This document shows, in pieces, positions 1-9,229 of a stretch of DNA of 64,000 nt (position 1 is the stretch's first letter; the number at the start of each line of letters is the position of its first letter). Under the pieces are notes generated by a model. The model searched no databases and had not been told where the DNA came from. It was given only the letters and a program-made list of their open reading frames with translations. The DNA lies in assembly GCA_030603365.1 (NCBI GenBank), contig JAUVXV010000005.1, positions 96,001 through 160,000 of the forward strand, in the 5' to 3' direction. The stretch comes from Candidatus Heimdallarchaeota archaeon. Lineage in GTDB: Archaea; Asgardarchaeota; Heimdallarchaeia; Heimdallarchaeales; Heimdallarchaeaceae. Position numbers and translations under genes: made by a program.

Positions 1-30
1 CTTATATTTTAGAAGATTAAACGCGAATTA

Positions 31-1149
31 TTGATAAAAATGAGTGAAGAAGTATCGTATATTGATATGAGTACACTACACAATTTCATGAAAGATGTAT
101 TCATGGGTTTAGGTTATCCAGAAGAGCAAGCTAAGATTAGTGCAGATATATTGATCGAAGCTGATGTTAGAGGTATCACTTCTCATGGTGTTCAAAGATT
201 GAGATATTACTATGTTAGAGTGAAATCTAATCAACATCTTGTCACCGATTTTAAAATAATAAAAGATGAAGCAGCTACAGCTGTCATCGATGGTAACCAT
301 GGTAATGGTCATTATATCTCATACAAGGCAATGAAAATATCTATTGAAAAAGCTAAGAAGTATGGTATAGGGATGGTAGTCGTTAGAAACAGTACTCATT
401 ATGGTATAGCGGGTTACTATCCTCTCATGGCAATAAAAGAGGGGTGTCTAGGAATAACAGGAACAAATGCAAGACCAGCTGTTGCACCAACCTTTGGTGG
501 AGAACCTGTGTATGGTACTAATCCTCTTACCTTTGGCTTTCCAACCGATGAAGAGTTTCCATTTGTTTTAGATTGTGCTACATCTATTATTCAGAGAGGT
601 AAAGTAGAAATTGCTGCTAGAAATAACACTCCTTTACCAGATGGAGTAGTCATTGACAGAGAAACAGGTAAAACACGTACTGATGCAGCTCAATTGCTGA
701 AAGATTTTGTTGATAATAAAGCTGCTTTACTAGCTTTAGGGGGAGCTGGAGAAGAACTATCTGGTCACAAAGGATATGGTTACGCTACTGTAGTTGAGAT
801 TCTCTCTGCAGCTCTGCAAGATGGAGTGTTTCTCAAAGACTTATCAGGACTAGATGATGAGGGTACTAAAGTTCATTTCAGAGTTGGTCATTTCTTCATT
901 GCAATTGACCCATCGTTCTTCATGGGATTTGAGATTTTTAAAGCGATTGCAGGGAATATTTGTAGAGGCTTGCGAAATTCAGATAAGGTTCCTGATGCTT
1001 TTAGAATTTACACAGCAGGAGAAAAGGAATACGAAGCTGAGAAAATTGTTAGAGAAAAAGGCGTTCCTTTAAGCAAGAGTATCCAAGAAGACTTGATTTT
1101 CATGAGAGATGAGCTTAAACTTGCCAAGTATAATTTCTCTTTTAAATGA
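31..1149 (+). CDS. Ldh_2 family (malate/L-lactate/sulfolactate dehydrogenase-like) oxidoreductase
   Basis: ADVRGITSHGV, NSTHYGIAGYY, GTNPL, LDCATS, GHKGYG motifs; real start probably ATG at 40. Confidence 0.9.
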   Translation: MIKMSEEVSYIDMSTLHNFMKDVFMGLGYPEEQAKISADILIEADVRGITSHGVQRLRYYYVRVKSNQHLVTDFKIIKDEAATAVIDGNHGNGHYISYKAMKISIEKAKKYGIGMVVVRNSTHYGIAGYYPLMAIKEGCLGITGTNARPAVAPTFGGEPVYGTNPLTFGFPTDEEFPFVLDCATSIIQRGKVEIAARNNTPLPDGVVIDRETGKTRTDAAQLLKDFVDNKAALLALGGAGEELSGHKGYGYATVVEILSAALQDGVFLKDLSGLDDEGTKVHFRVGHFFIAIDPSFFMGFEIFKAIAGNICRGLRNSDKVPDAFRIYTAGEKEYEAEKIVREKGVPLSKSIQEDLIFMRDELKLAKYNFSFK

Positions 1150-1156
1150 AGTATAT

Positions 1157-2278
1157 TTATTCACTTCTAATTTCTTCTGGAGGGACGAAAGGAAACACTC
1201 TTCGAACAATATCTTTTGCTCTTTCGAAATGAGAGACCTTTCCTTCGAAATTTTCTAATTCTTCTCTGAATTCTTCGTAGAAGTTTTCAGTGAAATGTTT
1301 TGCTGCCGATTGAAGAATAAAGGCATCACTGTCACTTATAATAAGAGTAGTAACTTTATGTTCCTTGTCTTCAACAACTATGAGTTTTTTATCACCAAAA
1401 CTTACTTTCCGAAGATCCGTTTTAGCACCGGTAGTCTCAGAAATCAGCGCCTTTAGAGCTGTGACAGTTCCAGATACTAGTACGTCTTGATAAGCTAGAT
1501 CAACTGCCTTACCTCCAATTCTCACTGAAAAGAGTAATAGACCAGCATCATTGAAGATGAGTATCTTGTTAATTTTCGCAGGTAGTAGATAAACATAGAA
1601 TGGATTGAAGATGAAAGCTAAGGCTAAGATACCAAAGGTGATACTGAAAGGAATAGCTCCATAAATTTGGAAAGTGTTAAATGTCCATCTCTCGAAAACC
1701 TTGAGTGAAGCAAATACAAAACCAATTCCAGTTGCAGTAGCTATTAAGAAACTTATTCTTTTGAGTTTTTTATATTCCGCTCTCATTGTATCTTTTGTAT
1801 AAACATAAAACGCTTCTCCAAGTACAAAAGCTTGAAAGATGTTTAGCAAAACCCTTGAAACTCGATACTCTGGAGTTTCTGCATATACACCCGTAGATTC
1901 TATGCCGTAAAGAACCTCAAGTATGTATACAATTATGTATCCTCCTAGAAGTGTGGAAGCAGTTGCTAAGAGGAAAGTATTCGGTTTTTCATTACGCATG
2001 AATTCTAAATAGAGAAAGAGTACGAAAAGAGCTATACCTGAAGGAATCATGTGAAATTCTTGTAAAGAACTGTAATCAGAAACGATGCCATTTCGCCAAA
2101 GAATGAAAATAATGATCTCTAATACTCCTTGAAAGATTACCAAACCAAATAACCAAATGAACCATGTAAAACCAGTAATCCTGTCTCTGTATCTCCTATA
2201 CAAGAAATAAGCTAGGATGATACTAATAATAACCATCTGAGCAATTTTGATGTATAATTCACCATAACTAGAAGCCAT
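1157..2278 (-). CDS. 7TM membrane protein with C-terminal longin/roadblock-like domain
   Basis: Seven hydrophobic segments in aa ~9-225, then ILIFNDAGLLLFS...LVSGTVTAL...F..NFYEEF pattern typical of Asgard longin-like domains. Confidence 0.75.
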   Translation of the reverse strand: MASSYGELYIKIAQMVIISIILAYFLYRRYRDRITGFTWFIWLFGLVIFQGVLEIIIFILWRNGIVSDYSSLQEFHMIPSGIALFVLFLYLEFMRNEKPNTFLLATASTLLGGYIIVYILEVLYGIESTGVYAETPEYRVSRVLLNIFQAFVLGEAFYVYTKDTMRAEYKKLKRISFLIATATGIGFVFASLKVFERWTFNTFQIYGAIPFSITFGILALAFIFNPFYVYLLPAKINKILIFNDAGLLLFSVRIGGKAVDLAYQDVLVSGTVTALKALISETTGAKTDLRKVSFGDKKLIVVEDKEHKVTTLIISDSDAFILQSAAKHFTENFYEEFREELENFEGKVSHFERAKDIVRRVFPFVPPEEIRSE

Positions 2279-2339
2279 CGAATATGCTTAAACGTGCTGA
2301 AATATAAATTTAGCCCTAATTTAACATGAAGAGATAAGA

Positions 2340-2434
2340 GAGGGAAGGGTGTGGTTCCCCTCCCACTAAGCTCTGCTGGTGGTTAAAACTAGCGAGGGGA
2401 CGCTAGTTGAATTTGATATGTGGGGACATATCAA
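2340..2434. ncRNA. Candidate small RNA of four tandem hairpins
   Basis: Stems 2340-2362, 2363-2382, 2387-2408 (8 bp perfect), 2413-2434 (9 bp perfect); TTTAAATA box on minus strand at 2457-2464; strand not settled. Confidence 0.5.
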
Positions 2435-2623
2435 CATTAGACTTAAGAGAAAATACTATTTAAACCCCCAAATTTTCATAATACTTTCGTTTCACCATAC
2501 GCTGAAAGTAAAACAGATTCAATAGATAGGCGGTTTTTGGTTTCGTTGTGTAGGTGAAAACACAATAATGACTAAATGTGTGTGATGGAAATTTTATATA
2601 GGTAAGATTGTAATATACTTGCA

Positions 2624-2989
2624 ATGGATTCCGAAGTAGAGAAACAAGATTATGAGTTGCTCTTACTCCTCAGTACTTTAGGAGCTAATAAAATTCGAGC
2701 AATACTTATCTTGGCACACCTATACCCAAAAGCGATCACTGCCACACAACTATCAACTCTGCTTGGATATTCGATGAAAGCAAGAACAATCTATCGAGGT
2801 ATATTAGATGACCTACAGGAAAGAGAATTAATCTTTCTAGACAAACTCACTCCCAAAGTAGCCAGCATTCGATTAAATCATGAGAACGAGTTACTCAAAA
2901 GACTAATCGAAATGTCTCAGAACCAGGGAGGAGAGTATCAAAAGGTAATCGATGAACTATTGGTGAAAAAAGATGAAGATGAATGGTAA
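2624..2989 (+). CDS. Winged-helix DNA-binding protein
   Basis: KIRAILILAHLYPKAITATQLSTLLGYS...LDDLQERELI wHTH pattern. Confidence 0.65.
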   Translation: MDSEVEKQDYELLLLLSTLGANKIRAILILAHLYPKAITATQLSTLLGYSMKARTIYRGILDDLQERELIFLDKLTPKVASIRLNHENELLKRLIEMSQNQGGEYQKVIDELLVKKDEDEW

Positions 2990-3596
2990 ATACCAATCAC
3001 TGCTTCGAGCAGATAGAAAACCCACTCTAACTGTAAAAAGGGCGTTATTCTATTTAGTATTACTAGTATCTCTAGCCCTGTTTATCTCGTTTTTCACCTC
3101 TTTAAGTTATTCACAAACCTTTGATAGATCTTTTACTGATTTTAACGCTATACCTACTATTCCAACTGATTATGTAGCAGTCTTTACAACAGAACTAATT
3201 AACGAAGGATATAGAGATTTAAACGGTATCATCATCTCTTTACCAACTTGGGGTATTGTAACTCTAATCACCTCAGGTGTAGGATTTGGATCAACTATTC
3301 TGAGTTCAACTCTCTCAAAAACAATGTTATTAGAAAATAAGAAATGGTTGAAAACTTGGACAAAGAAAGGGAAAATAACTTACCACTATTTCTTTAAGAT
3401 GGTGAAAATAGATCTGGGGGAGAATAGAATAAGCATACTTAAGCTGAAGAATAAGTATAGAATTAAGATACAAATTGCAGAGGGTTTAGATCTTTCCAAA
3501 TATGGGTTCTCTTTAAAGAATAACTATTTTGTAGGATATTTTGTAAAAGAGGAACTGTCTAGTACTATTCATTTACTCAGTACTCAACTGCAATAA
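2973..3596 (+). CDS. Hypothetical membrane protein (2 TM)
   Basis: Two hydrophobic segments; overlaps upstream wHTH gene, suggesting translational coupling. Confidence 0.6.
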   Translation: MKMNGKYQSLLRADRKPTLTVKRALFYLVLLVSLALFISFFTSLSYSQTFDRSFTDFNAIPTIPTDYVAVFTTELINEGYRDLNGIIISLPTWGIVTLITSGVGFGSTILSSTLSKTMLLENKKWLKTWTKKGKITYHYFFKMVKIDLGENRISILKLKNKYRIKIQIAEGLDLSKYGFSLKNNYFVGYFVKEELSSTIHLLSTQLQ

Positions 3597-3650
3597 TTCT
3601 CTTATTGCTTCTGTTCTTACTCTTCTAACTATCCTACTTTCATTACTCGA

Positions 3651-3708
3651 GGACTCTTGTACAGAGTCCCACTATTGCCCTAGAGTGTAGAGTGGTGGAA
3701 ACTCTACA
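3651..3708. other. Two perfect hairpins between convergent genes
   Basis: GGACTCT-tgtac-AGAGTCC (3651-3669) and TGTAGAGT-ggtggaa-ACTCTACA (3686-3708). Confidence 0.55.
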
Positions 3709-3737
3709 TCTTGAATTATTCCGCTCGAATGTTTCGT

Positions 3738-5078
3738 TTAAGCTGTAGCTTCATTACCATTAGCAATATGCTTTCGCAGATAAGAAAGATCCTTAGATGC
3801 TGGCTCTTCTTTCTTATATTGACCAAAATTACCATTTTGTAATTTATCTTCGATTTTAGCTATGGTACTATCTAACAACCAGTCCTTGTCAACTCTCCAT
3901 TTTTTCTGCTGCCAGTCGAAATTATCATACTCAAAAGTCCAATAGAGACCATGTTTTCCAAAGAAATCAAGTGAGTAGATTTTATAATCCTTTAAGGTAC
4001 TCCAAATGAGATAATTAATCTTGGATTCGTAGTATGGCGGCATTGTAAGTCTGAGGAATATTCCTTTGTTGAATAGCTCTAAATGTGATTGAAATGGAAT
4101 TCTCTCTTCATGGAAGAAGCGGAAAATTTGAGCTTTTTCTTTTTCAGGAACATTTTCTATGAAATATGCTCGTGTAGCATGTTGTTCAAATAACTTACGA
4201 CTGAAATTCCAGCGTGGGTGAGTAACAAGGTTGTTCATGACTAAATTATAGTATTTCCTACCAAAATCAACTTTAGCATTGTGCATATTCTTGTCATCAA
4301 AAAACTCACTGAGATTGAATAACAAAATTTCTTCAGCACTTGTAAGTTTCTCCTCATTAGAGTTTGAAACTTGTTCATTCTTCTTGCTAAGATGTTTGTA
4401 GTAGTCACTATAATGTTGAATCAAATCTGTTTGCTTTGACCTAATATCAATAGTTCTTCCATTAGTTATTGAAGTTGTTAAGTCTTTTAGTAGTTCAAAA
4501 TGGAGAGGTTCTATTGTCTGAAGATCAATAGCAGATGGTAGTCTAGGTAGCGAAACGCTTTTAGATAACCTTTTTTCCCAGAATGAAATTAGATCAAATG
4601 GTTCTGGATCTTGAGTATAGTGGGGTAAGGGTTGTGGCCTGGTGAACCGATAACCCATAGATTTCATTGTGAAAAAACTGTCACAATATTCTTGTTCAAC
4701 TAAATGCTCAAGATACTGGTTAAATAACTGCTCAGTATTCTCCGGGAGCTCGAAATGTGCATAGATTCCATAACTTTCACCATAAAAACGGTTGTATGCT
4801 CGAATATACTTGTGTTCAGATAAGGCATTTTGCAATAAAGTAAACTGGTGGAGAGAACTTATTGAAAATATAACTCCATATCTATAAAGTGAAATTCGTT
4901 CTGGAACAAAAGATGCGAATGGTGTTCGGAGAATTTTCCGATCTTTAAGTGATTTAACGCGTCGAATCATTGTTTGTGGAGAAATTTTTAGTTTCTCTGC
5001 TTGCTTGGAAAATGGTTCTAACGGATAATTCTGCAATACATGCAGTATCTTTTTGTCAAGTATGTTTAAATGATCCAT
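3738..5078 (-). CDS. Large Lrp/AsnC-type transcriptional regulator, apparently with two HTH-RAM-like modules
   Basis: N-terminal LDKKILHVLQ...FSKQAEKLKISPQTMIRRVKSL AsnC HTH; second degenerate module starting near IEPLHFELLKDL. Confidence 0.7.
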   Translation of the reverse strand: MDHLNILDKKILHVLQNYPLEPFSKQAEKLKISPQTMIRRVKSLKDRKILRTPFASFVPERISLYRYGVIFSISSLHQFTLLQNALSEHKYIRAYNRFYGESYGIYAHFELPENTEQLFNQYLEHLVEQEYCDSFFTMKSMGYRFTRPQPLPHYTQDPEPFDLISFWEKRLSKSVSLPRLPSAIDLQTIEPLHFELLKDLTTSITNGRTIDIRSKQTDLIQHYSDYYKHLSKKNEQVSNSNEEKLTSAEEILLFNLSEFFDDKNMHNAKVDFGRKYYNLVMNNLVTHPRWNFSRKLFEQHATRAYFIENVPEKEKAQIFRFFHEERIPFQSHLELFNKGIFLRLTMPPYYESKINYLIWSTLKDYKIYSLDFFGKHGLYWTFEYDNFDWQQKKWRVDKDWLLDSTIAKIEDKLQNGNFGQYKKEEPASKDLSYLRKHIANGNEATA

Positions 5079-5104
5079 TTTTTTGACCTCTTTTTTTTGT
5101 TATT

Positions 5105-5402
5105 GTTGTTTGCGAAGAAACAACCGGAGAGATCAAGAAGGTGGCTTGTACAAGAAATGTAGCCTCCGCAGTTTGCAGTCTAGCGTGCAATATCTTGTAC
5201 AAGACCCTCTCGATATCCCCTTCGAGAGAACCCATTTAGACCTCTAACTTTGTTTCTTCGTGGTTTGACCCCTTGTGTTTGAGTTCGAATTAGCTTCCTT
5301 TGACCTTTCCTAGTGGAAACCTTAATGGGGGGATTAATGACCTAGTTTCCCCCCAGGTTTTCCTTTCTCGCCAAATGAGGAAAGGGGTGGGGTTTCTGGC
5401 GA
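5105..5402 (-). ncRNA. Candidate structured intergenic/leader RNA
   Basis: At least six hairpins; plus-strand A.C mismatches become G.U pairs on minus; G-run and C-run loops. Confidence 0.55.
5145..5204. promoter_or_regulatory. Two CTTGTACAAG palindromes (candidate operators or RNA stem arms)
   Basis: Perfect 10-bp palindrome at 5145-5154 and 5194-5203, 49 bp apart, upstream of the regulator. Confidence 0.4.
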
Positions 5403-5430
5403 TTTTGATTTTTAATTCAGCGTGATCTTA

Positions 5431-5658
5431 TCATCCAGTTGCATACCCATGAGTTCCTATTGGCACATCCTCAACCGGACCTGCTCCTCCAGGACTATAC
5501 CCTATTGGCACATCTTCAACTGGACCTGCTCCTCCAGGACTATACCCTATTGGCACATCTTCAAGAGGTTCAGAAGTTGTAATCATTATTGTTCCTGCAA
5601 CCAAAGCAAGAATTGTTACTAAACAAAATACCCCAAGTACTTTTTGTTTCTTTTTCAT
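5431..5658 (-). CDS. Small secreted/membrane prepropeptide with tandem repeated cores
   Basis: Basic N-terminus + hydrophobic helix, then EDVPIGYSPGGAGPV x2 and EDVPIGTHGYATG; GGTGG SD; CTTAAATA box near 5708-5715; double stop TGA-TAA. Confidence 0.85.
   Translation of the reverse strand: MKKKQKVLGVFCLVTILALVAGTIMITTSEPLEDVPIGYSPGGAGPVEDVPIGYSPGGAGPVEDVPIGTHGYATG
5456..5564. repeat. 45-bp coding tandem repeat, ~2.4 copies
   Basis: Units 5456-5500, 5501-5545, partial 5546-5564; the two full units differ only at synonymous positions. Confidence 0.95.
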
Positions 5659-6334
5659 TTATTTTCCACCAGCTTTATTCGAGCTCAAGTTACCATGTGT
5701 ACTAGTATTATTTAAGAGTTGTTACAATTTTCCATGTTTCTTAAAAAAGTGGAAAAAAGTAACATGACTCATGTCTAAATGCATTACATGAAAGTTTGAC
5801 GGCTCTGTTAAACTATTTTTGTCGGGATATTAAGAAGATATGACCTAATGGTCTATGTAAGGCAAATTCCGTTTTACCTTACAGACGTGAAAATATCTGG
5901 GTATATATGCGGGGAATATTGCTTAGATTATTTTTCTTTTAATAATAAAAAATTGTTGAACAAAGAGTGCATTCTTTTGAGTAATTCTACTGTTAGCTAA
6001 ACAAAATACTAGATAAAATCAACATACTTTCATTTAATGATTAATTAAGTATTGACATAAATGATTAGAGGGCTTGAATCAGTGATTTGTTTTTCTACAA
6101 AAAATCGATGTTTATCTAGAAGAAGAGTTGAGTCGATATCGCATTAAGAATAACTACAAAAAAAATCATATTACACTATTTTCTTCAAATTTGGAATTTT
6201 TTCAGAAGTATTTCTTAGCTGAGAATTTTACTTTAAAAACAACTCTTTTAGTATACAATCTGTCTTACAAAATTTCTCTATTTTAATTTACTACTATCTA
6301 TATACTTCTGTCAAATAGGATGCTAAAAAAGTAG

Positions 6335-6733
6335 TTATTTTTTAATCGCATAAGCAATTTTCAGAAATAATCCACATCCTGTACAAAACTCTGTTTCTTT
6401 TGAATTCACTGTTTCACAATTTGGACAAACAAGTAGTTCTTCTTTTGCAATTCCTTCTACTATTTTCTCTTGTTCAAGATCATCTTTAGGTTCTTCCTTG
6501 TTTTGTGATTTAACAAATTTTCTCATTTTAAAAGCTAGAACAGTAAATACAATTAGCAGGATGGAAGATACAAAAGCTATAAGTATACCAATTATTGACC
6601 AAATTAAACTTAAATGTACTCCAAAAACTATACCTCCGATGGCTACCAAAGGTAATGCGAATACAAATATAGTTAACAACAGTAATCCAAATGTGGTTGA
6701 TTTCTTTTTATTTTCATTCTTCTCCTTATTCAT
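6335..6733 (-). CDS. Membrane protein with C-terminal zinc ribbon
   Basis: 2 TM + CPNC...CTGC. Confidence 0.8.
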   Translation of the reverse strand: MNKEKNENKKKSTTFGLLLLTIFVFALPLVAIGGIVFGVHLSLIWSIIGILIAFVSSILLIVFTVLAFKMRKFVKSQNKEEPKDDLEQEKIVEGIAKEELLVCPNCETVNSKETEFCTGCGLFLKIAYAIKK

Positions 6734-7121
6734 CTATTTTGACCTCTTCCTCAGGTTCTTTTAAGAAGAAACCACATTTTGAGCAATTTTCTTGGTCAGC
6801 TGAATTACGTGTTTTGCATATAAGACAAATTTTCAAATTTAAGGACTGATTACAATAAACACAGTTTTTCCGACTAAGAGGATTTGTTTTATTACATTCA
6901 GGGCAGATCGAGATATCTTTTCTCTTCCTGAAAGAGGATCCAAAAACTAAAATAATGGATGAAAATGCAATTCCTAAAATCCCCCCTATAATGTATCCCC
7001 TATTCATAGTTTGATCTATGACAACTATACCTATATATAGACAGTAGACCGATCCCAGGAATATAATTATTAAACCAATGTTGATAACCTTATTGTTGAC
7101 TAAGAAATTACATCTTTTCAT
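6726..7121 (-). CDS. Membrane protein with double zinc ribbon
   Basis: 2 TM + four CxxC pairs. Confidence 0.8.
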   Translation of the reverse strand: MKRCNFLVNNKVINIGLIIIFLGSVYCLYIGIVVIDQTMNRGYIIGGILGIAFSSIILVFGSSFRKRKDISICPECNKTNPLSRKNCVYCNQSLNLKICLICKTRNSADQENCSKCGFFLKEPEEEVKIDE

Positions 7122-7179
7122 AACAATATTAACATTAGGAAAATGATGATTTAAGTTTTAGCTATGATTTCTAATTCTA

Positions 7180-8400
7180 CTATTTATGCTTAAAGAATTG
7201 CTTTGTGCTTAGTACAGTAAGAGCTAATAGTGATAAAATAAGCAAACTGAAACTGTAATTTATTGTTTTGATTGTTGGTGTTTCAAGATATTCAACTGAT
7301 GGAAAAGGATCATTAGCTTCTGCTGTTCCATCGATAGGATAAGGCATTTCCATATGCCAATCCGACCAATAATTACCTTCTTCTGTCTCTTCATCAAACC
7401 AAATATTTTCTGTTCCATCGTCACAAGCTTGAGAATAACCTCCAAAGTTATTATCTATGAAAGTATTATGGTGGATGATATTAACATCAGAAGCATAATT
7501 GATATAGAGACCATAATCTTGGTTTCTTTCAAATAGATTGTTAGTTAGAACACAATGATCAGCACTATCTAATCTCATACCATTATCATTAAACTCGCAA
7601 GTATTGTTAGCTAAGTTTACTCTAGAGGAGTAAGATAACAATGTTCCAGCAAAGCTATTTTTCGTACAAGTGTTATTTGTTACTGTCGTTCCTGTCGAAT
7701 ATTTTAACCAGATTCCATGCCAATTGTTGTACTTACAAGTGTTGTTTGTAACTGTGCTTCTGGATGAGGAATAAAGAAGAATTCCTGCATTAAAATTATT
7801 ACTACAATTATTACTAGATAATCTATTCTCTGGTGATTCAAAAATAAAGATTCCATGATTAATATTGTTAAAACAATTATTATTTGAAAGTGTTACATTA
7901 GATGAATTGAGTATCTCAATTCCATTAATGTTACTGCTACAGGAATTATTAGCAACTATGGCTCCAGAACATTCTCTTAAACTGATGCCATCAAATTCAC
8001 TGCTCACACAGCTATTATTCATAACTGACACAGTACCCCATGAAATGCAGTCTGAAATCGTGATTCCTACCCTCGATGCTTCTATGTAGCAGTTCAGTAT
8101 AATAAAAAATTTAGAAGTGTTCCAGATTGAAATACCATATTGAGCTGAAGTTACTATCAAGTAATTCTCTATTAGGTACGGATTTTCAGTTGTTCCTAAA
8201 CCTGGAAAACCATAGTTGATGAAACCTTCGTCATTGTCTATTTCTATTGGACCATGAGTTACATAAGAGTCAATTAAAGAATTATGAGTATTATTGAATT
8301 TGCTAACACTAGAATGATCCTCTGAATTGTATACTTCAGAACCAGATATTAAGCAAAAGCTGAATATCAGAACAATCAGAAGTTTTTTCATCTTTTTCAC
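7180..8400 (-). CDS. Right-handed parallel beta-helix (NosD/CASH-like) surface protein
   Basis: Signal peptide, GFPGLGTTENPYLIEN, NN-C-xx-N-xx-GI repeats, GNYWSD, C-terminal TM. Confidence 0.85.
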   Translation of the reverse strand: MKKMKKLLIVLIFSFCLISGSEVYNSEDHSSVSKFNNTHNSLIDSYVTHGPIEIDNDEGFINYGFPGLGTTENPYLIENYLIVTSAQYGISIWNTSKFFIILNCYIEASRVGITISDCISWGTVSVMNNSCVSSEFDGISLRECSGAIVANNSCSSNINGIEILNSSNVTLSNNNCFNNINHGIFIFESPENRLSSNNCSNNFNAGILLYSSSRSTVTNNTCKYNNWHGIWLKYSTGTTVTNNTCTKNSFAGTLLSYSSRVNLANNTCEFNDNGMRLDSADHCVLTNNLFERNQDYGLYINYASDVNIIHHNTFIDNNFGGYSQACDDGTENIWFDEETEEGNYWSDWHMEMPYPIDGTAEANDPFPSVEYLETPTIKTINYSFSLLILSLLALTVLSTKQFFKHK

Positions 8401-8521
8401 TCAAAGAGAATTATCGTTCTAACACTAATAAACGTAATGCAGAATCTTTCATAAATTCAAAATCCCAATTCTCTCTTTTATTTGAAATGTTTAAATATCC
8501 ATTTGTGCAAATATTCAAAGT

Positions 8522-9229
8522 ATGGAGTTGAGATGTTCGTTCTGTGGAGGAGAAGTAAACGAACTTAAACATGTTGATACAATGAAGAAGAAAGCATACT
8601 GTTCTTTTAGATGTACTATTGCTGATAGCATTCCAAGATTGGTTCTTTCTTTATTCTTAACTACTGGACTTGGAGTTATCTTAATTCTTGTCGGAGTTTC
8701 GAACGATTCTTCCAAAAATGTTATTATATTTAGTATTCTATTTGGAATTACAATTTTAGGAATCTTAATCTTCATTATTATAGGTTCAACGCACAATCCG
8801 AATAACCAATTACAAAGTAAAGAAAGAATATCCTTTCAAAAGATTAGATATGAGAAGATGAAGGCAGAAGAAAGTTTTACAAAAGCTCAACTTATTTATC
8901 CAGAATCACCTACAATTTCAAAAATTGCTCAACTTGTTTCTCCTGAAACATCTGCAATCTCAAAAAATACTATCCAATGTTTTTATTGCAAATCTAAGAT
9001 TGATTTCTCTAATTCAGAAGATCAAATAATCTGTATGAGTTGTGGAAATAAAATCCCTTTCTGTGATTTATGTGATGATTACATAGAATCAGAAGCTGAA
9101 ATTCTTCAACTTGAACCCTGTGGTCATATCTTTCATAAAAAAGAACTTCTAGAATGGGTAAAAAGTAATAAAATCTGTTCTAAATGTCAAGTAACTATGA
9201 CTTTTGTAGATGTTAGTCCAGATTTTTAG
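8522..9229 (+). CDS. Membrane-anchored RING-H2-like protein (putative E3 ligase)
   Basis: N-terminal CSFC...CSFRC, 2 TM, Zn ribbon, C-terminal CDLC...CGHIFHKKE...W...CSKC. Confidence 0.75.
   Translation: MELRCSFCGGEVNELKHVDTMKKKAYCSFRCTIADSIPRLVLSLFLTTGLGVILILVGVSNDSSKNVIIFSILFGITILGILIFIIIGSTHNPNNQLQSKERISFQKIRYEKMKAEESFTKAQLIYPESPTISKIAQLVSPETSAISKNTIQCFYCKSKIDFSNSEDQIICMSCGNKIPFCDLCDDYIESEAEILQLEPCGHIFHKKELLEWVKSNKICSKCQVTMTFVDVSPDF

What the first reader, a model, noticed from the sequence alone, without database searches (positions are those of the whole stretch)
1157..5790. Candidate Asgard peptide-signalling module: repeat prepropeptide, riboregulated Lrp-type regulator and 7TM-longin receptor-like protein
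Seen within 4.6 kb: a signal-peptide precursor with three EDVPIG-initiated cores, a ~300-nt structured spacer, a co-oriented double Lrp-like regulator, a wHTH/membrane pair, two more hairpin clusters, and a 7TM protein with a cytoplasmic longin-like domain. Established: repeat-bearing prepropeptides sensed by 7TM receptors are the logic of yeast alpha-factor/Ste2, and longin/roadblock domains regulate small GTPases. Inference: processed peptides are sensed by the 7TM protein or the regulator and feed into GTPase or transcriptional control, making a pheromone/quorum-like circuit. Linkage to the 7TM gene rests on proximity only.
Basis: partly seen in the sequence, partly recalled or inferred. 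Interest (0 to 1): 0.88.

Follow-up and report, generated by a model that had tools for sequence, protein, structure and literature searches.

The report
Secreted repeat peptide, RNA leader, tandem-Lrp cassette
A Heimdallarchaeal genus carries a conserved three-part unit (a small exported repeat peptide, a structured RNA and a double Lrp-type regulator) that derives from a gene pair found widely in Asgard archaea, while the neighbouring 7TM-longin gene is not shown to belong to it.

Summary
They do not form one module.

**The conserved unit** lies on the minus strand:
- a 75-aa exported peptide with three EDVPIG repeats (5431-5658);
- a 352-nt spacer RNA (5079-5430) with three helices supported by covariation;
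- a 446-aa protein built of two Lrp/AsnC units (3738-5078).

This trio was found in every same-genus genome where the region is assembled. Repeat number varies from 2 to 7, and the repeat unit is species-specific around a D-E-P-I-G core.

**It derives from an older, undescribed two-gene cassette.** That cassette pairs a roughly 155-aa secreted beta-sandwich protein, carrying an FDPPGG..DP tail, with a tandem-Lrp protein. It occurs in up to 9 copies per genome across two Asgard classes.

**The other genes are not linked to it.** The 7TM-longin gene and the wHTH/membrane pair are only genus-level neighbours. They are absent beside the trio in two genomes, and the cassette genes are absent beside 7TM homologues in other genera.

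**Mechanism is inferred.** The most likely model is an autoregulated loop of exported signal and cytoplasmic regulator, similar in logic to RRNPP systems (about 0.35). The main rival is a plain regulator-plus-cargo operon.

The parts
5431..5658 (-). Small exported repeat peptide gene (75 aa): signal or anchor sequence followed by 3 x EDVPIG(YSPGGAGPV).
   Evidence: Orthologues with 2-7 repeats lie upstream of every regulator orthologue.
5706..5715 (-). TATA-like box (TTAAATAATA) about 50 nt upstream of the peptide ATG. A GGTGGA Shine-Dalgarno sequence lies at 5665-5670.
   Evidence: Read directly. This is inference; no transcription start data exist.
5079..5430 (-). Conserved intercistronic or leader RNA. 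It has no oligo-T run of 5 or more on the gene strand.
   Evidence: Alignment A1. One copy in the window's own genome. The motif was found in only 17 genomes, all Heimdallarchaeota, among 185,579 species genomes. No Rfam match.
5235..5405 (-). RNA core. It contains the invariant tract AUCGCCAG..CCCCACCCCUUUCCUC, the nested helices P2/P3 with conserved loop GAGGUCA, and the motifs GGGGUCAAACC and AGAGGUCUA.
   Evidence: The covariance model gives 18 hits of 121-177 bits. Covariation score is 0.305 against 0.159 for shuffles (0 of 500 reach it). Six of seven P3 pairs change on both sides.
5145..5203 (-). Helix P7: two CTTGTACAAG copies that pair with each other and enclose 39 nt.
   Evidence: One search gives the positions; 7 of 10 pairs change on both sides, covariation 0.339 against 0.214 (0 of 500), and G.U pairs sit on the gene strand.
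3738..5078 (-). Tandem Lrp/AsnC-fold protein ('Lrp2x', 446 aa), a probable ligand-responsive transcription factor.
   Evidence: The family is small: 111 clusters among 1.84 billion proteins. Public names are Lrp/AsnC or wHTH regulator, Heimdallarchaeaceae.
3651..3708 (.). Two short perfect hairpins between the convergent ends of the membrane-protein gene and the regulator gene. They are probably terminator-region structures.
   Evidence: Their conservation was not tested.
2973..3596 (+). Fast-evolving membrane protein (207 aa) overlapping the wHTH gene. A neighbour, not shown to belong to the cassette.
   Evidence: Identity is 28-59% within the genus. No family found.
2624..2989 (+). Small putative wHTH protein (121 aa), 74-93% identical across the genus. 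A neighbour, not shown to belong to the cassette.
2546..2565 (+). Inverted repeat TTGTGTA-N6-ACACAA upstream of the wHTH gene. Its two arms are invariant in 12 genomes. Probably the operator of the wHTH protein.
   Evidence: 0 expected by chance. (alignment).
1157..2278 (-). 7TM protein with a C-terminal longin/roadblock-like domain. The positive-inside rule places that domain in the cytoplasm. A syntenic neighbour only.
   Evidence: The family has up to 10 matches per genome across the order. Other genera lack these neighbours.

Best explanation
**What it is (shown).** The functional unit is the minus-strand trio from about 5716 to 3738: promoter, exported repeat-peptide gene, a roughly 350-nt structured RNA, and a tandem Lrp/AsnC-fold gene. 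It is the genus-specific form of an Asgard two-gene cassette. In that cassette a secreted protein of about 155 aa (signal peptide, Ig-like beta-sandwich, and a Gly/Pro/acidic C-terminal segment FDPPGGxGGxDP...) lies directly upstream of, and co-oriented with, a tandem-Lrp gene. Up to 9 cassettes occur per genome.

**How the window's form arose (inferred).** In this lineage the beta-sandwich was lost. The acidic Pro-containing tail unit (D-[ET]-P-I-[GQ]) was multiplied in tandem. The intergenic region grew into a structured RNA.

**How it most likely works (inferred, about 0.35).**
1. Peptide and regulator are made from one transcript, since no oligo-T terminator lies between them.
2. The peptide is exported by Sec and cut into units.
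3. The units or their fragments are taken up again. The genome holds about 23 Opp/Dpp-type binding proteins.
4. They bind the RAM-like domains of the tandem-Lrp protein.
5. That protein then changes transcription of its own operon and other targets.

This would be an autoinducing signal-plus-receptor loop with the logic of RRNPP or Agr systems.

**Role of the RNA (inferred).** It sets how much regulator is made per peptide transcript. Its invariant C/U tract can pair either with purine segments inside the RNA or with GAGG-type Shine-Dalgarno-like motifs.

**What is excluded.** The 7TM-longin gene and the wHTH/membrane pair are not part of the unit.

**On the confidence figure.** The value 0.35 is for the signalling mechanism. 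That the trio and the cassette are a real, functionally linked unit I put at about 0.9.
For: **Trio conserved within the genus.**
- Regulator orthologues (57-85% identity) occur in most of 24 same-genus genomes.
- Each has a signal-peptide repeat ORF 346-429 nt upstream.

**Cassette conserved far beyond the genus.**
- Two of the three paralogous regulator genes in the window's own genome (C6, C2) follow a secreted beta-sandwich gene. The third (C14) follows a larger 285-aa secreted protein.
- Ten of 11 regulator-like genes sampled in other genera and families do the same, with gaps of 0-162 nt.
- The partner family occurs in 95 of 301 genomes sampled across the phylum.
- All 18 listed partner genes in five genomes from two classes lie directly upstream of a tandem-Lrp gene.
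- The two genes diverge together (Mantel r 0.50, 11 of 5000 permutations reach it).

**An intermediate form exists.** The nearest non-genus cassette (41-43% identity) keeps the domain, ends in ..PDTPIS.., and has a spacer of about 340 nt.

**Regulator fold.**

**RNA.** Helices P2, P3 and P7 covary, with G.U pairs on the gene strand.

**Peptide frame.** Differences between repeats are synonymous.

**Uptake capacity.** 23 SBP_bac_5 genes score above the cut-off.
Against: - No processing, secretion, uptake or binding has been shown.
- In most cassettes the partner is a folded domain of about 110 aa. Its 'tail' probably ends in a beta-strand that belongs to the fold, which is unlike known peptide pheromones.
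- Profile search does not prove that the repeat peptide is homologous to the partner family. Only the signal peptide aligns, at E about 0.01.
- The best fold match, NirDL, is an enzyme and not a regulator.
- Only the first HTH is recognised by Pfam. No RAM-domain Pfam hit was found.
- The window's RNA is no more stable than shuffles.
- There are no basic cleavage sites between repeats in the window's clade.
Confidence: 0.35

Rival explanations
1. Plain regulator-plus-cargo operon. The tandem-Lrp protein is an amino-acid- or metabolite-responsive transcription factor that controls its own operon. The secreted partner, here reduced to an acidic Gly/Pro repeat peptide, acts outside the cell, for example in adhesion, cation binding or antagonism, and does not feed back on the regulator.
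For: - Lrp/AsnC regulators normally sense amino acids.
- In most cassettes the partner is a conserved Ig-like domain with a DxDxDG-like acidic motif, which suggests an extracellular role of its own.
- Co-divergence is expected from adjacency alone.
Against: - It does not explain why each of up to 9 small secreted paralogues keeps a private regulator in the same operon across two classes.
- It does not explain why the domain could be lost while the tail unit was kept and multiplied.
Confidence: 0.3
2. Translation- or secretion-coupled cis control, as in SecM, MifM or VemP. The upstream ORF is a monitoring substrate. Its Pro/Gly/acidic C-terminal motif slows ribosomes unless it is pulled by export. 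The stalled ribosome then remodels the downstream RNA and exposes the regulator's ribosome-binding site.
For: - The anatomy fits: an N-terminal export signal, a conserved C-terminal DPPGG motif close to the stop codon, and the downstream gene 0-44 nt away in most cassettes.
- DPP and PPG are strong EF-P-dependent stall motifs in bacteria (own knowledge, not tested here).
- In the window a structured RNA with GAGG motifs sits between the two ORFs.
Against: - Known monitors control Sec or YidC genes, not transcription factors.
- Up to 9 paralogues per genome and a conserved folded domain are unexpected for a pure leader.
- The window's repeat has no Pro-Pro.
- The last repeat lies about 350 nt from the regulator start.
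Confidence: 0.1
3. The tandem-Lrp protein is not a regulator. It is an enzyme or chaperone with a NirDL/AhbAB-like fold that acts on the partner precursor or on a small molecule.
For: NirDL is the best whole-length structural match (E 1.3e-8). There is a Pfam NirdL-like_HTH hit.
Against: - No haem-biosynthesis genes lie nearby.
- Identity to NirDL is 12%.
- TM-scores are only 0.41 (by query) and 0.54 (by target).
- The HTH is well preserved. The paralogue on C2 hits HTH_24 at 2e-15.
- A cytoplasmic enzyme has no obvious access to a Sec-exported substrate.
Confidence: 0.1
4. One reading: the processed peptides are sensed by the neighbouring 7TM-longin protein, which signals to a small GTPase or to transcription.
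For: The genes lie within 4.6 kb and stay syntenic in about 13 same-genus genomes. The 7TM topology and the longin-like domain are real.
Against: - The unrelated Ldh2 gene is equally syntenic.
- The block is interrupted in four genomes. The 7TM, wHTH, membrane-protein and Ldh2 genes were not found near the trio on a 10.6-kb contig, nor within the 13 kb fetched from a 41-kb contig.
- 7TM homologues in other genera lack all cassette genes nearby.
- The paralogous cassette loci fetched show no 7TM-longin gene beside them.
- No GTPase gene lies nearby.
Confidence: 0.05

Closest known systems
RRNPP-type peptide communication cassettes (Rap-Phr, NprR-NprX, PlcR-PapR, AimR-AimP) of Bacillota and their phages
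   Same: - A small Sec-exported pro-peptide gene lies next to a cytoplasmic regulator.
- Many diverging paralogous cassettes occur per genome.
- The active part is presumed to lie near the C-terminus of the exported product.
- Opp-type uptake proteins are available.
   Different: - The receptor has a tandem Lrp/AsnC fold, not TPR.
- The peptide gene lies upstream, with a 350-nt structured RNA in between.
- In most cassettes the exported partner is a folded beta-sandwich protein.
- The host is an archaeon.
- No step has been shown experimentally.
Lrp/AsnC (feast/famine) transcription regulators
   Same: An N-terminal AsnC-type HTH followed by an alpha/beta sandwich. The structure matches many solved members.
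   Different: - Two units are fused in one chain of 354-446 aa.
- The second HTH has diverged and carries long helical inserts.
- There is no Pfam RAM-domain hit.
- It is strictly paired with a secreted protein gene.
NirDL / AhbA-AhbB sirohaem decarboxylases
   Same: They have the only solved fused two-unit Lrp-like architecture. NirDL is the best whole-length fold match.
   Different: Identity is 12%. There is no haem-pathway context. The protein here occurs as multiple paralogues, each paired with a secreted partner.
Multi-core precursors (yeast alpha-factor, fungal Kex2-processed repeat precursors, cyanobactin PatE)
   Same: A signal sequence followed by tandem near-identical units. Copy number varies between species, and the units within one gene are kept alike.
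   Different: - The window's clade has no dibasic or other recognised cleavage sites.
- No maturation enzymes lie nearby.
- No evidence links it to a 7TM receptor.
Asgard Roadblock/LC7/longin superfamily. The bioRxiv paper 10.1101/2020.10.19.343400 counts 130 gene families of this superfamily and notes many lineage-specific architectures.
   Same: The C-terminal domain of the 7TM protein has this fold.
   Different: It is fused to seven membrane helices. I did not find that architecture described in the two papers checked. No GTPase partner lies nearby.

Membership tests
Lrp/AsnC regulators | N-terminal AsnC-type winged HTH | tested here: met
   Pfam HTH_AsnC-type scores 27.8 bits against a cut-off of 27, at residues 6-44. 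The C2 paralogue hits HTH_24 at 2e-15.
Lrp/AsnC regulators | C-terminal RAM (alpha/beta sandwich) effector domain | tested here: inconclusive
   No Pfam AsnC_trans_reg hit. However, the model aligns over the full length of many Lrp/AsnC structures (TM by target 0.6-0.7).
Lrp/AsnC regulators | Single unit of about 150 aa that forms dimers or octamers and binds amino acids | tested here: not met
   Two units are fused in 446 aa. Oligomer state and ligand were not testable.
NirDL/AhbAB sirohaem decarboxylase | Fused or paired Lrp-like units | tested here: met
   Foldseek match to 4ch7: E 1.3e-8 over 420 columns.
NirDL/AhbAB sirohaem decarboxylase | Haem d1 or alternative haem biosynthesis gene context | tested here: not met
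   The neighbours are the secreted partner and unrelated genes.
RRNPP communication systems | TPR-domain cytoplasmic receptor | tested here: not met
   The fold is Lrp/AsnC-like.
RRNPP communication systems | Adjacent gene for a small exported pro-peptide | tested here: met
RRNPP communication systems | Processed peptide is re-imported by Opp and binds the receptor | not testable with these tools
   The only relevant result is that 23 SBP_bac_5 genes are present.
Alpha-factor/Ste2-type pheromone circuit | Repeat cores flanked by dibasic processing sites | tested here: not met
   The window's repeats contain no Lys or Arg. Some relatives have a single Lys per unit.
Alpha-factor/Ste2-type pheromone circuit | Cognate 7TM receptor functionally linked to the peptide | tested here: not met
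   The synteny is separable and does not extend beyond the genus.
Longin/roadblock domain proteins | Alpha-beta-alpha sandwich fold | tested here: met
   Matches to AP2 sigma, TRAPP, MglB and Sec22b with probability 1.0 and TM by target about 0.6, but E-values of only 0.008-0.05. Model pLDDT in this domain is 52-83.
Longin/roadblock domain proteins | Partner small GTPase encoded nearby | tested here: not met
   No GTPase family among the nine products in 1-9229.
Secretion monitors (SecM/MifM/VemP) | The downstream gene is a Sec or YidC component | tested here: not met
   The downstream gene encodes an Lrp-fold protein.
Any Rfam RNA family | Match to a curated covariance model | tested here: not met
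   No relevant match at E <= 1 in 1-9000.

The most novel reading that the evidence does not exclude
The cassette family, a secreted partner plus a tandem-Lrp protein, is a peptide- or protein-based self-signalling system native to Asgard archaea. It is present as several private channels per cell. The window's genus has stripped one channel down to a pure multi-copy pheromone precursor, with an RNA switch controlling the receptor. This would be the first signal-and-receptor communication family defined in the archaeal lineage closest to eukaryotes, and it uses a receptor fold not known to sense peptides.
Probability: 0.25. Interest if true: 0.9.

Novelty: new variant of a known kind. Interest (0 to 1): 0.62.

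Why it matters
- **Archaeal communication.** Quorum sensing in archaea is described as poorly characterised (abstract of PMC13464002, seen). My literature searches found no peptide-and-receptor pair described for Asgard archaea.
- **A tractable candidate.** Here a strictly conserved, multi-paralogue gene pair links an exported product to a cytoplasmic Lrp-fold protein. One lineage reduces the exported product to a short repeat peptide. That gives synthetic-peptide and DNA-binding experiments a defined starting point.
- **A new RNA.** The spacer is a covariation-supported, lineage-specific archaeal cis-RNA. Few such elements are known.
- **A warning about Asgard synteny.** An attractive neighbour such as a 7TM-longin gene can be linked by nothing more than genus-level gene order.

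Tried and rejected
- **Complex prediction.** The tandem-Lrp protein with peptide residues 29-75 gave score 0.00, reported as 'no answer'. It counts neither for nor against binding.
- **Single-sequence folding.** Energy of the RNA core gives z 0.10 on the gene strand and -0.18 on the opposite strand. There is no thermodynamic support.
- **RNAalifold on raw MAFFT alignments.** It recovered only invariant helices.
- **Self-versus-cross duplex test for P3.** It discriminated poorly because all stems are G/C runs, and the anchor was misplaced in two sequences.
- **Rfam.** Nothing relevant.
- **Covariance model on paralogous and distant cassettes.** No convincing hit.
- **Upstream ORF 'MGSLEGD'.** It is not conserved. 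The ATG is lost in several genomes and indels break the frame.
- **Profile of the partner family against the repeat peptides.** Only the signal peptide aligns, at E 0.01-0.7.
- **Pfam for the partner, the 7TM protein, the wHTH protein and the membrane protein.** Nothing above the cut-offs.
- **RNA-library contigs.** Contigs from four studies cover parts of the regulator, spacer and repeats of relatives, and one contig continues from the spacer start with unlike sequence that I read as a relative's peptide-gene end. Contigs cannot show transcription, ends or strand.
- **Metagenome pattern hit L090.** This was a chance match in a GC-rich contig.
- **CTTGTACAAG pair as DNA operators.** Rejected in favour of an RNA helix, because changes are compensated between the two copies rather than within each palindrome.

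Full report
**Observation**

The window is C9:96001-160000 of a 3.65-Mb MAG. Public names on homologues place it in Candidatus Heimdallarchaeaceae.

- ORF 5431-5658(-) encodes 75 aa: a Lys-rich start, a hydrophobic stretch of about 20 aa, and three EDVPIG units.
  - The DNA repeat has a 45-nt period and 96% matches.
  - The three differences between copies (cca/ccg, gaa/gag, ggg/gga) are synonymous in this frame.
- A 352-nt spacer follows, with GC 0.46 against about 0.33 around it.
- ORF 3738-5078(-) encodes 446 aa.
  - Only an N-terminal AsnC-type HTH is seen by Pfam.
  - The AF2 model has pLDDT 84.7.
  - Its best whole-length match is the fused two-unit NirDL (E 1.3e-8). Dozens of Lrp/AsnC regulators follow. 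'Double Lrp-like' is therefore correct.
- ORF 1157-2278(-) folds into seven helices plus an alpha/beta domain.
  - That domain matches longin/roadblock proteins with weak E-values.
  - Basic loops after helices 1, 3 and 5 put the domain in the cytoplasm. This is read from the sequence by the positive-inside rule.
- The overlapping 121-aa and 207-aa ORFs and the hairpins at 2387-2434 and 3651-3708 are there.

**What stays together**

Within the genus, regulator orthologues are 57-85% identical. Each is preceded, 346-429 nt upstream and in the same orientation, by a small ORF. That ORF has a conserved export signal and 2-7 tandem units.

- The unit differs between species. Examples are PVEDEPIGAMLPGGAG x7, PDGGYPDEPIGGNFASGGG x4 and GPVDGQTDTPIQGVSDK x3.
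- The units keep a D-[ET]-P-[IVL]-[GQ] core.
- Within one gene the copies are nearly identical.
- Several MAG contigs end inside the repeat.

The wider block Ldh2 - 7TM - wHTH - membrane protein - regulator - peptide is also kept in about nine genomes. This is general synteny, for four reasons.
- The unrelated Ldh2 gene is just as linked.
- Insertions of 2-3.7 kb split the block in four genomes.
- In two genomes the regulator and peptide have none of the other genes nearby. One is a 10.6-kb contig. The other is the 13 kb fetched from a 41-kb contig.
- The nearest 7TM homologues in other genera (25-29% identity) have none of these neighbours.

**The older cassette**

The regulator has three paralogues in the window's own genome. 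Each follows a co-oriented gene for a secreted protein.
- On C6: a 152-aa protein ending ..FDPPEGDPDYPPGGGVTPGP.
- On C2: a protein ending ..FDPPGQTGDTDPPEIEFITL.
- On C14: a 285-aa protein with a C-terminal anchor.

Beyond the genome:
- In other genera and families of the order, 10 of 11 regulator-like genes follow a protein of about 155-175 aa. It has a signal peptide, conserved motifs (ITDAYY..DxDGxEDDV..LTLPSG..NHATESGWY) and the tail FDPPGGxGGxDP plus 5-9 residues. Gaps to the regulator gene are 0-162 nt.
- The partner has no Pfam family. Its ESM Atlas model resembles Ig/PKD-like domains.
- A profile of the partner finds it in 95 of 301 genomes sampled across the phylum. This includes all sampled families of the window's order, further families of its class, and 33 of 76 genomes of one family in another class. 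It found none in 68 genomes of a third family. Up to 9 copies occur per genome.
- In five genomes from the two classes, all 18 listed partner genes lie directly upstream of a tandem-Lrp gene.
- The two genes diverge together (Mantel r 0.50). Adjacency alone would produce this.
- The regulator family is small: 111 clusters among 1.84 billion representatives.

**Origin of the repeat peptide**

- In sister genera the closest regulator (35-43% identity) still follows a 152-aa domain protein.
- One such protein ends ..FDPPGEEEPDTPISVSVSP. Its spacer is about 340 nt and carries three hairpin-plus-CACCCACCC units.
- One clade of the genus keeps about 28 non-repeat residues (..KGVHTTEYTMDL..) before units with the core DTPIQG.
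- I infer that the domain was lost and the tail unit multiplied. A profile search cannot confirm this homology, so it rests on gene position and motif resemblance.

**The RNA**

- The spacer aligns across 16-18 genomes with invariant blocks.
- It is single-copy in the window's genome.
- Its signature occurs in only 17 of 185,579 species genomes, all Heimdallarchaeota, once each.
- It has no Rfam match.
- Indels of one and two nucleotides, and loss of the ATG, rule out a conserved small ORF.
- Separate folds give the same nested P2/P3 hairpin in 17 of 18 sequences. The stems differ (GGGGGG/CCCCCC, GACGUC/GACGUC, GGGUCU/AGACCC, GGGCCU/AGGCCC) around a conserved GAGGUCA loop.
- On a model-based alignment the covariation score is 0.305 against 0.159 for shuffles (0 of 500 reach it) and 0.04-0.15 for slid controls. 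Six of seven P3 pairs change on both sides. That alignment leans towards the structure it was fitted to.
- On the unfitted MAFFT alignment, the two CTTGTACAAG copies form a 10-bp helix. Seven pairs change on both sides, with covariation 0.339 against 0.214 (0 of 500).
- G.U pairs in both tests place the structure on the gene strand.
- The invariant C/U tract (CCCCACCCCCUUUCCUCAAUU) is complementary to a purine segment after P2 in every sequence I inspected from the alignment. That segment changes sequence and register between clades: GGAAAGG, GAGGAA, AAUUGAGGA, AAGGGGUG, UGGGGUU. Alternative pairings exist (my reading of the sequences; not scored). This suggests a switch but is not proven.
- The window's RNA is no more stable than shuffled sequence.
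- No oligo-T run of 5 or more lies between the peptide stop and the regulator start. Co-transcription is therefore likely but not shown.

**Mechanism**

What is shown is a tight, ancient pairing of an exported product with a cytoplasmic Lrp-fold protein. It has been duplicated many times. One lineage keeps only the export signal and the tail unit.

- **Favoured (about 0.35):** an autoregulated signal-and-receptor loop. Uptake capacity exists, with 23 Opp/Dpp-type binding proteins.
- **Main rival (0.3):** a plain regulator-plus-cargo operon.
- **Stalling monitor (0.1):** it fits the anatomy but not the downstream gene or the number of paralogues.
- **Enzyme reading (0.1).**
- **7TM receptor model (0.05).**

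**Known or new**

- The literature searches found no description of this cassette.
- The two papers checked do not describe a 7TM-longin fusion. They do report that the Roadblock/longin superfamily is hugely expanded in Asgard archaea, with many lineage-specific architectures.
- The earlier notes of this scan that I retrieved for this stretch were first-reader notes, mostly on this same window.

**Verdict**

The real finding is narrower in one respect, because the 7TM-longin gene is not shown to take part. It is broader in another, because the pair belongs to an undescribed Asgard cassette family and carries a new cis-RNA.

Noticed in passing
window 2330-2440 (+): A conserved element lies between the 7TM and wHTH genes. 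A TATAAATTT box is followed by three or four hairpins (for example CTAGCG/CGCTAG and GATATGT/ACATATC). Stem changes are compensatory across 8 genomes of one clade. The element is absent from the other clade. There is no Rfam match. It is a candidate small RNA.
   Followed up: partly
window 2546-2565 (+): The inverted repeat TTGTGTA-N6-ACACAA lies just upstream of the wHTH gene's TATA-like box. Its two arms are invariant in all 12 genomes aligned, and it occurs once in the 64-kb window. It is probably the autoregulatory operator of the wHTH protein.
   Followed up: partly
G000:C6:50310-52028; G000:C2:108169-109831; G000:C14 around 169250-170830: Three further cassettes (secreted partner plus tandem-Lrp) occur in the same genome. 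The C6 copy is followed by a receiver-domain gene. The C14 partner is larger (285 aa) and ends in a membrane anchor with a basic tail.
   Followed up: partly
L079:4665-5000: The closest cassette outside the genus has a 337-nt spacer. It carries three copies of a hairpin (TTAGAC..GTCTAA) followed by CACCCACCC, each with a G-run downstream. It shares the words ATCACG / AATCG / CACCC with the 5' part of the window's RNA, so it is possibly the ancestral form.
   Followed up: no
window 6335-8400 (-) and 8522-9229 (+): Two small zinc-ribbon membrane proteins and a secreted right-handed beta-helix (NosD-like) protein lie between the peptide gene and a 235-aa zinc-ribbon/repeat protein. In three relatives that 235-aa protein lies within about 1 kb of the peptide gene, so these three genes look like an insertion. 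A similar beta-helix gene flanks the C6 cassette.
   Followed up: no
L059, L072, G013:C138, G018:C274 (contig ends): Several MAG contigs end inside the peptide repeat, and one contig has an N-run there. Copy numbers in draft genomes are therefore lower bounds.
   Followed up: no
whole order: The longin-like domain of the 7TM protein also matches the C-terminal part of proteins of about 680 aa and about 360 aa that are conserved across the genus. The 7TM-longin architecture itself has up to 10 matches per genome in sister families.
   Followed up: no
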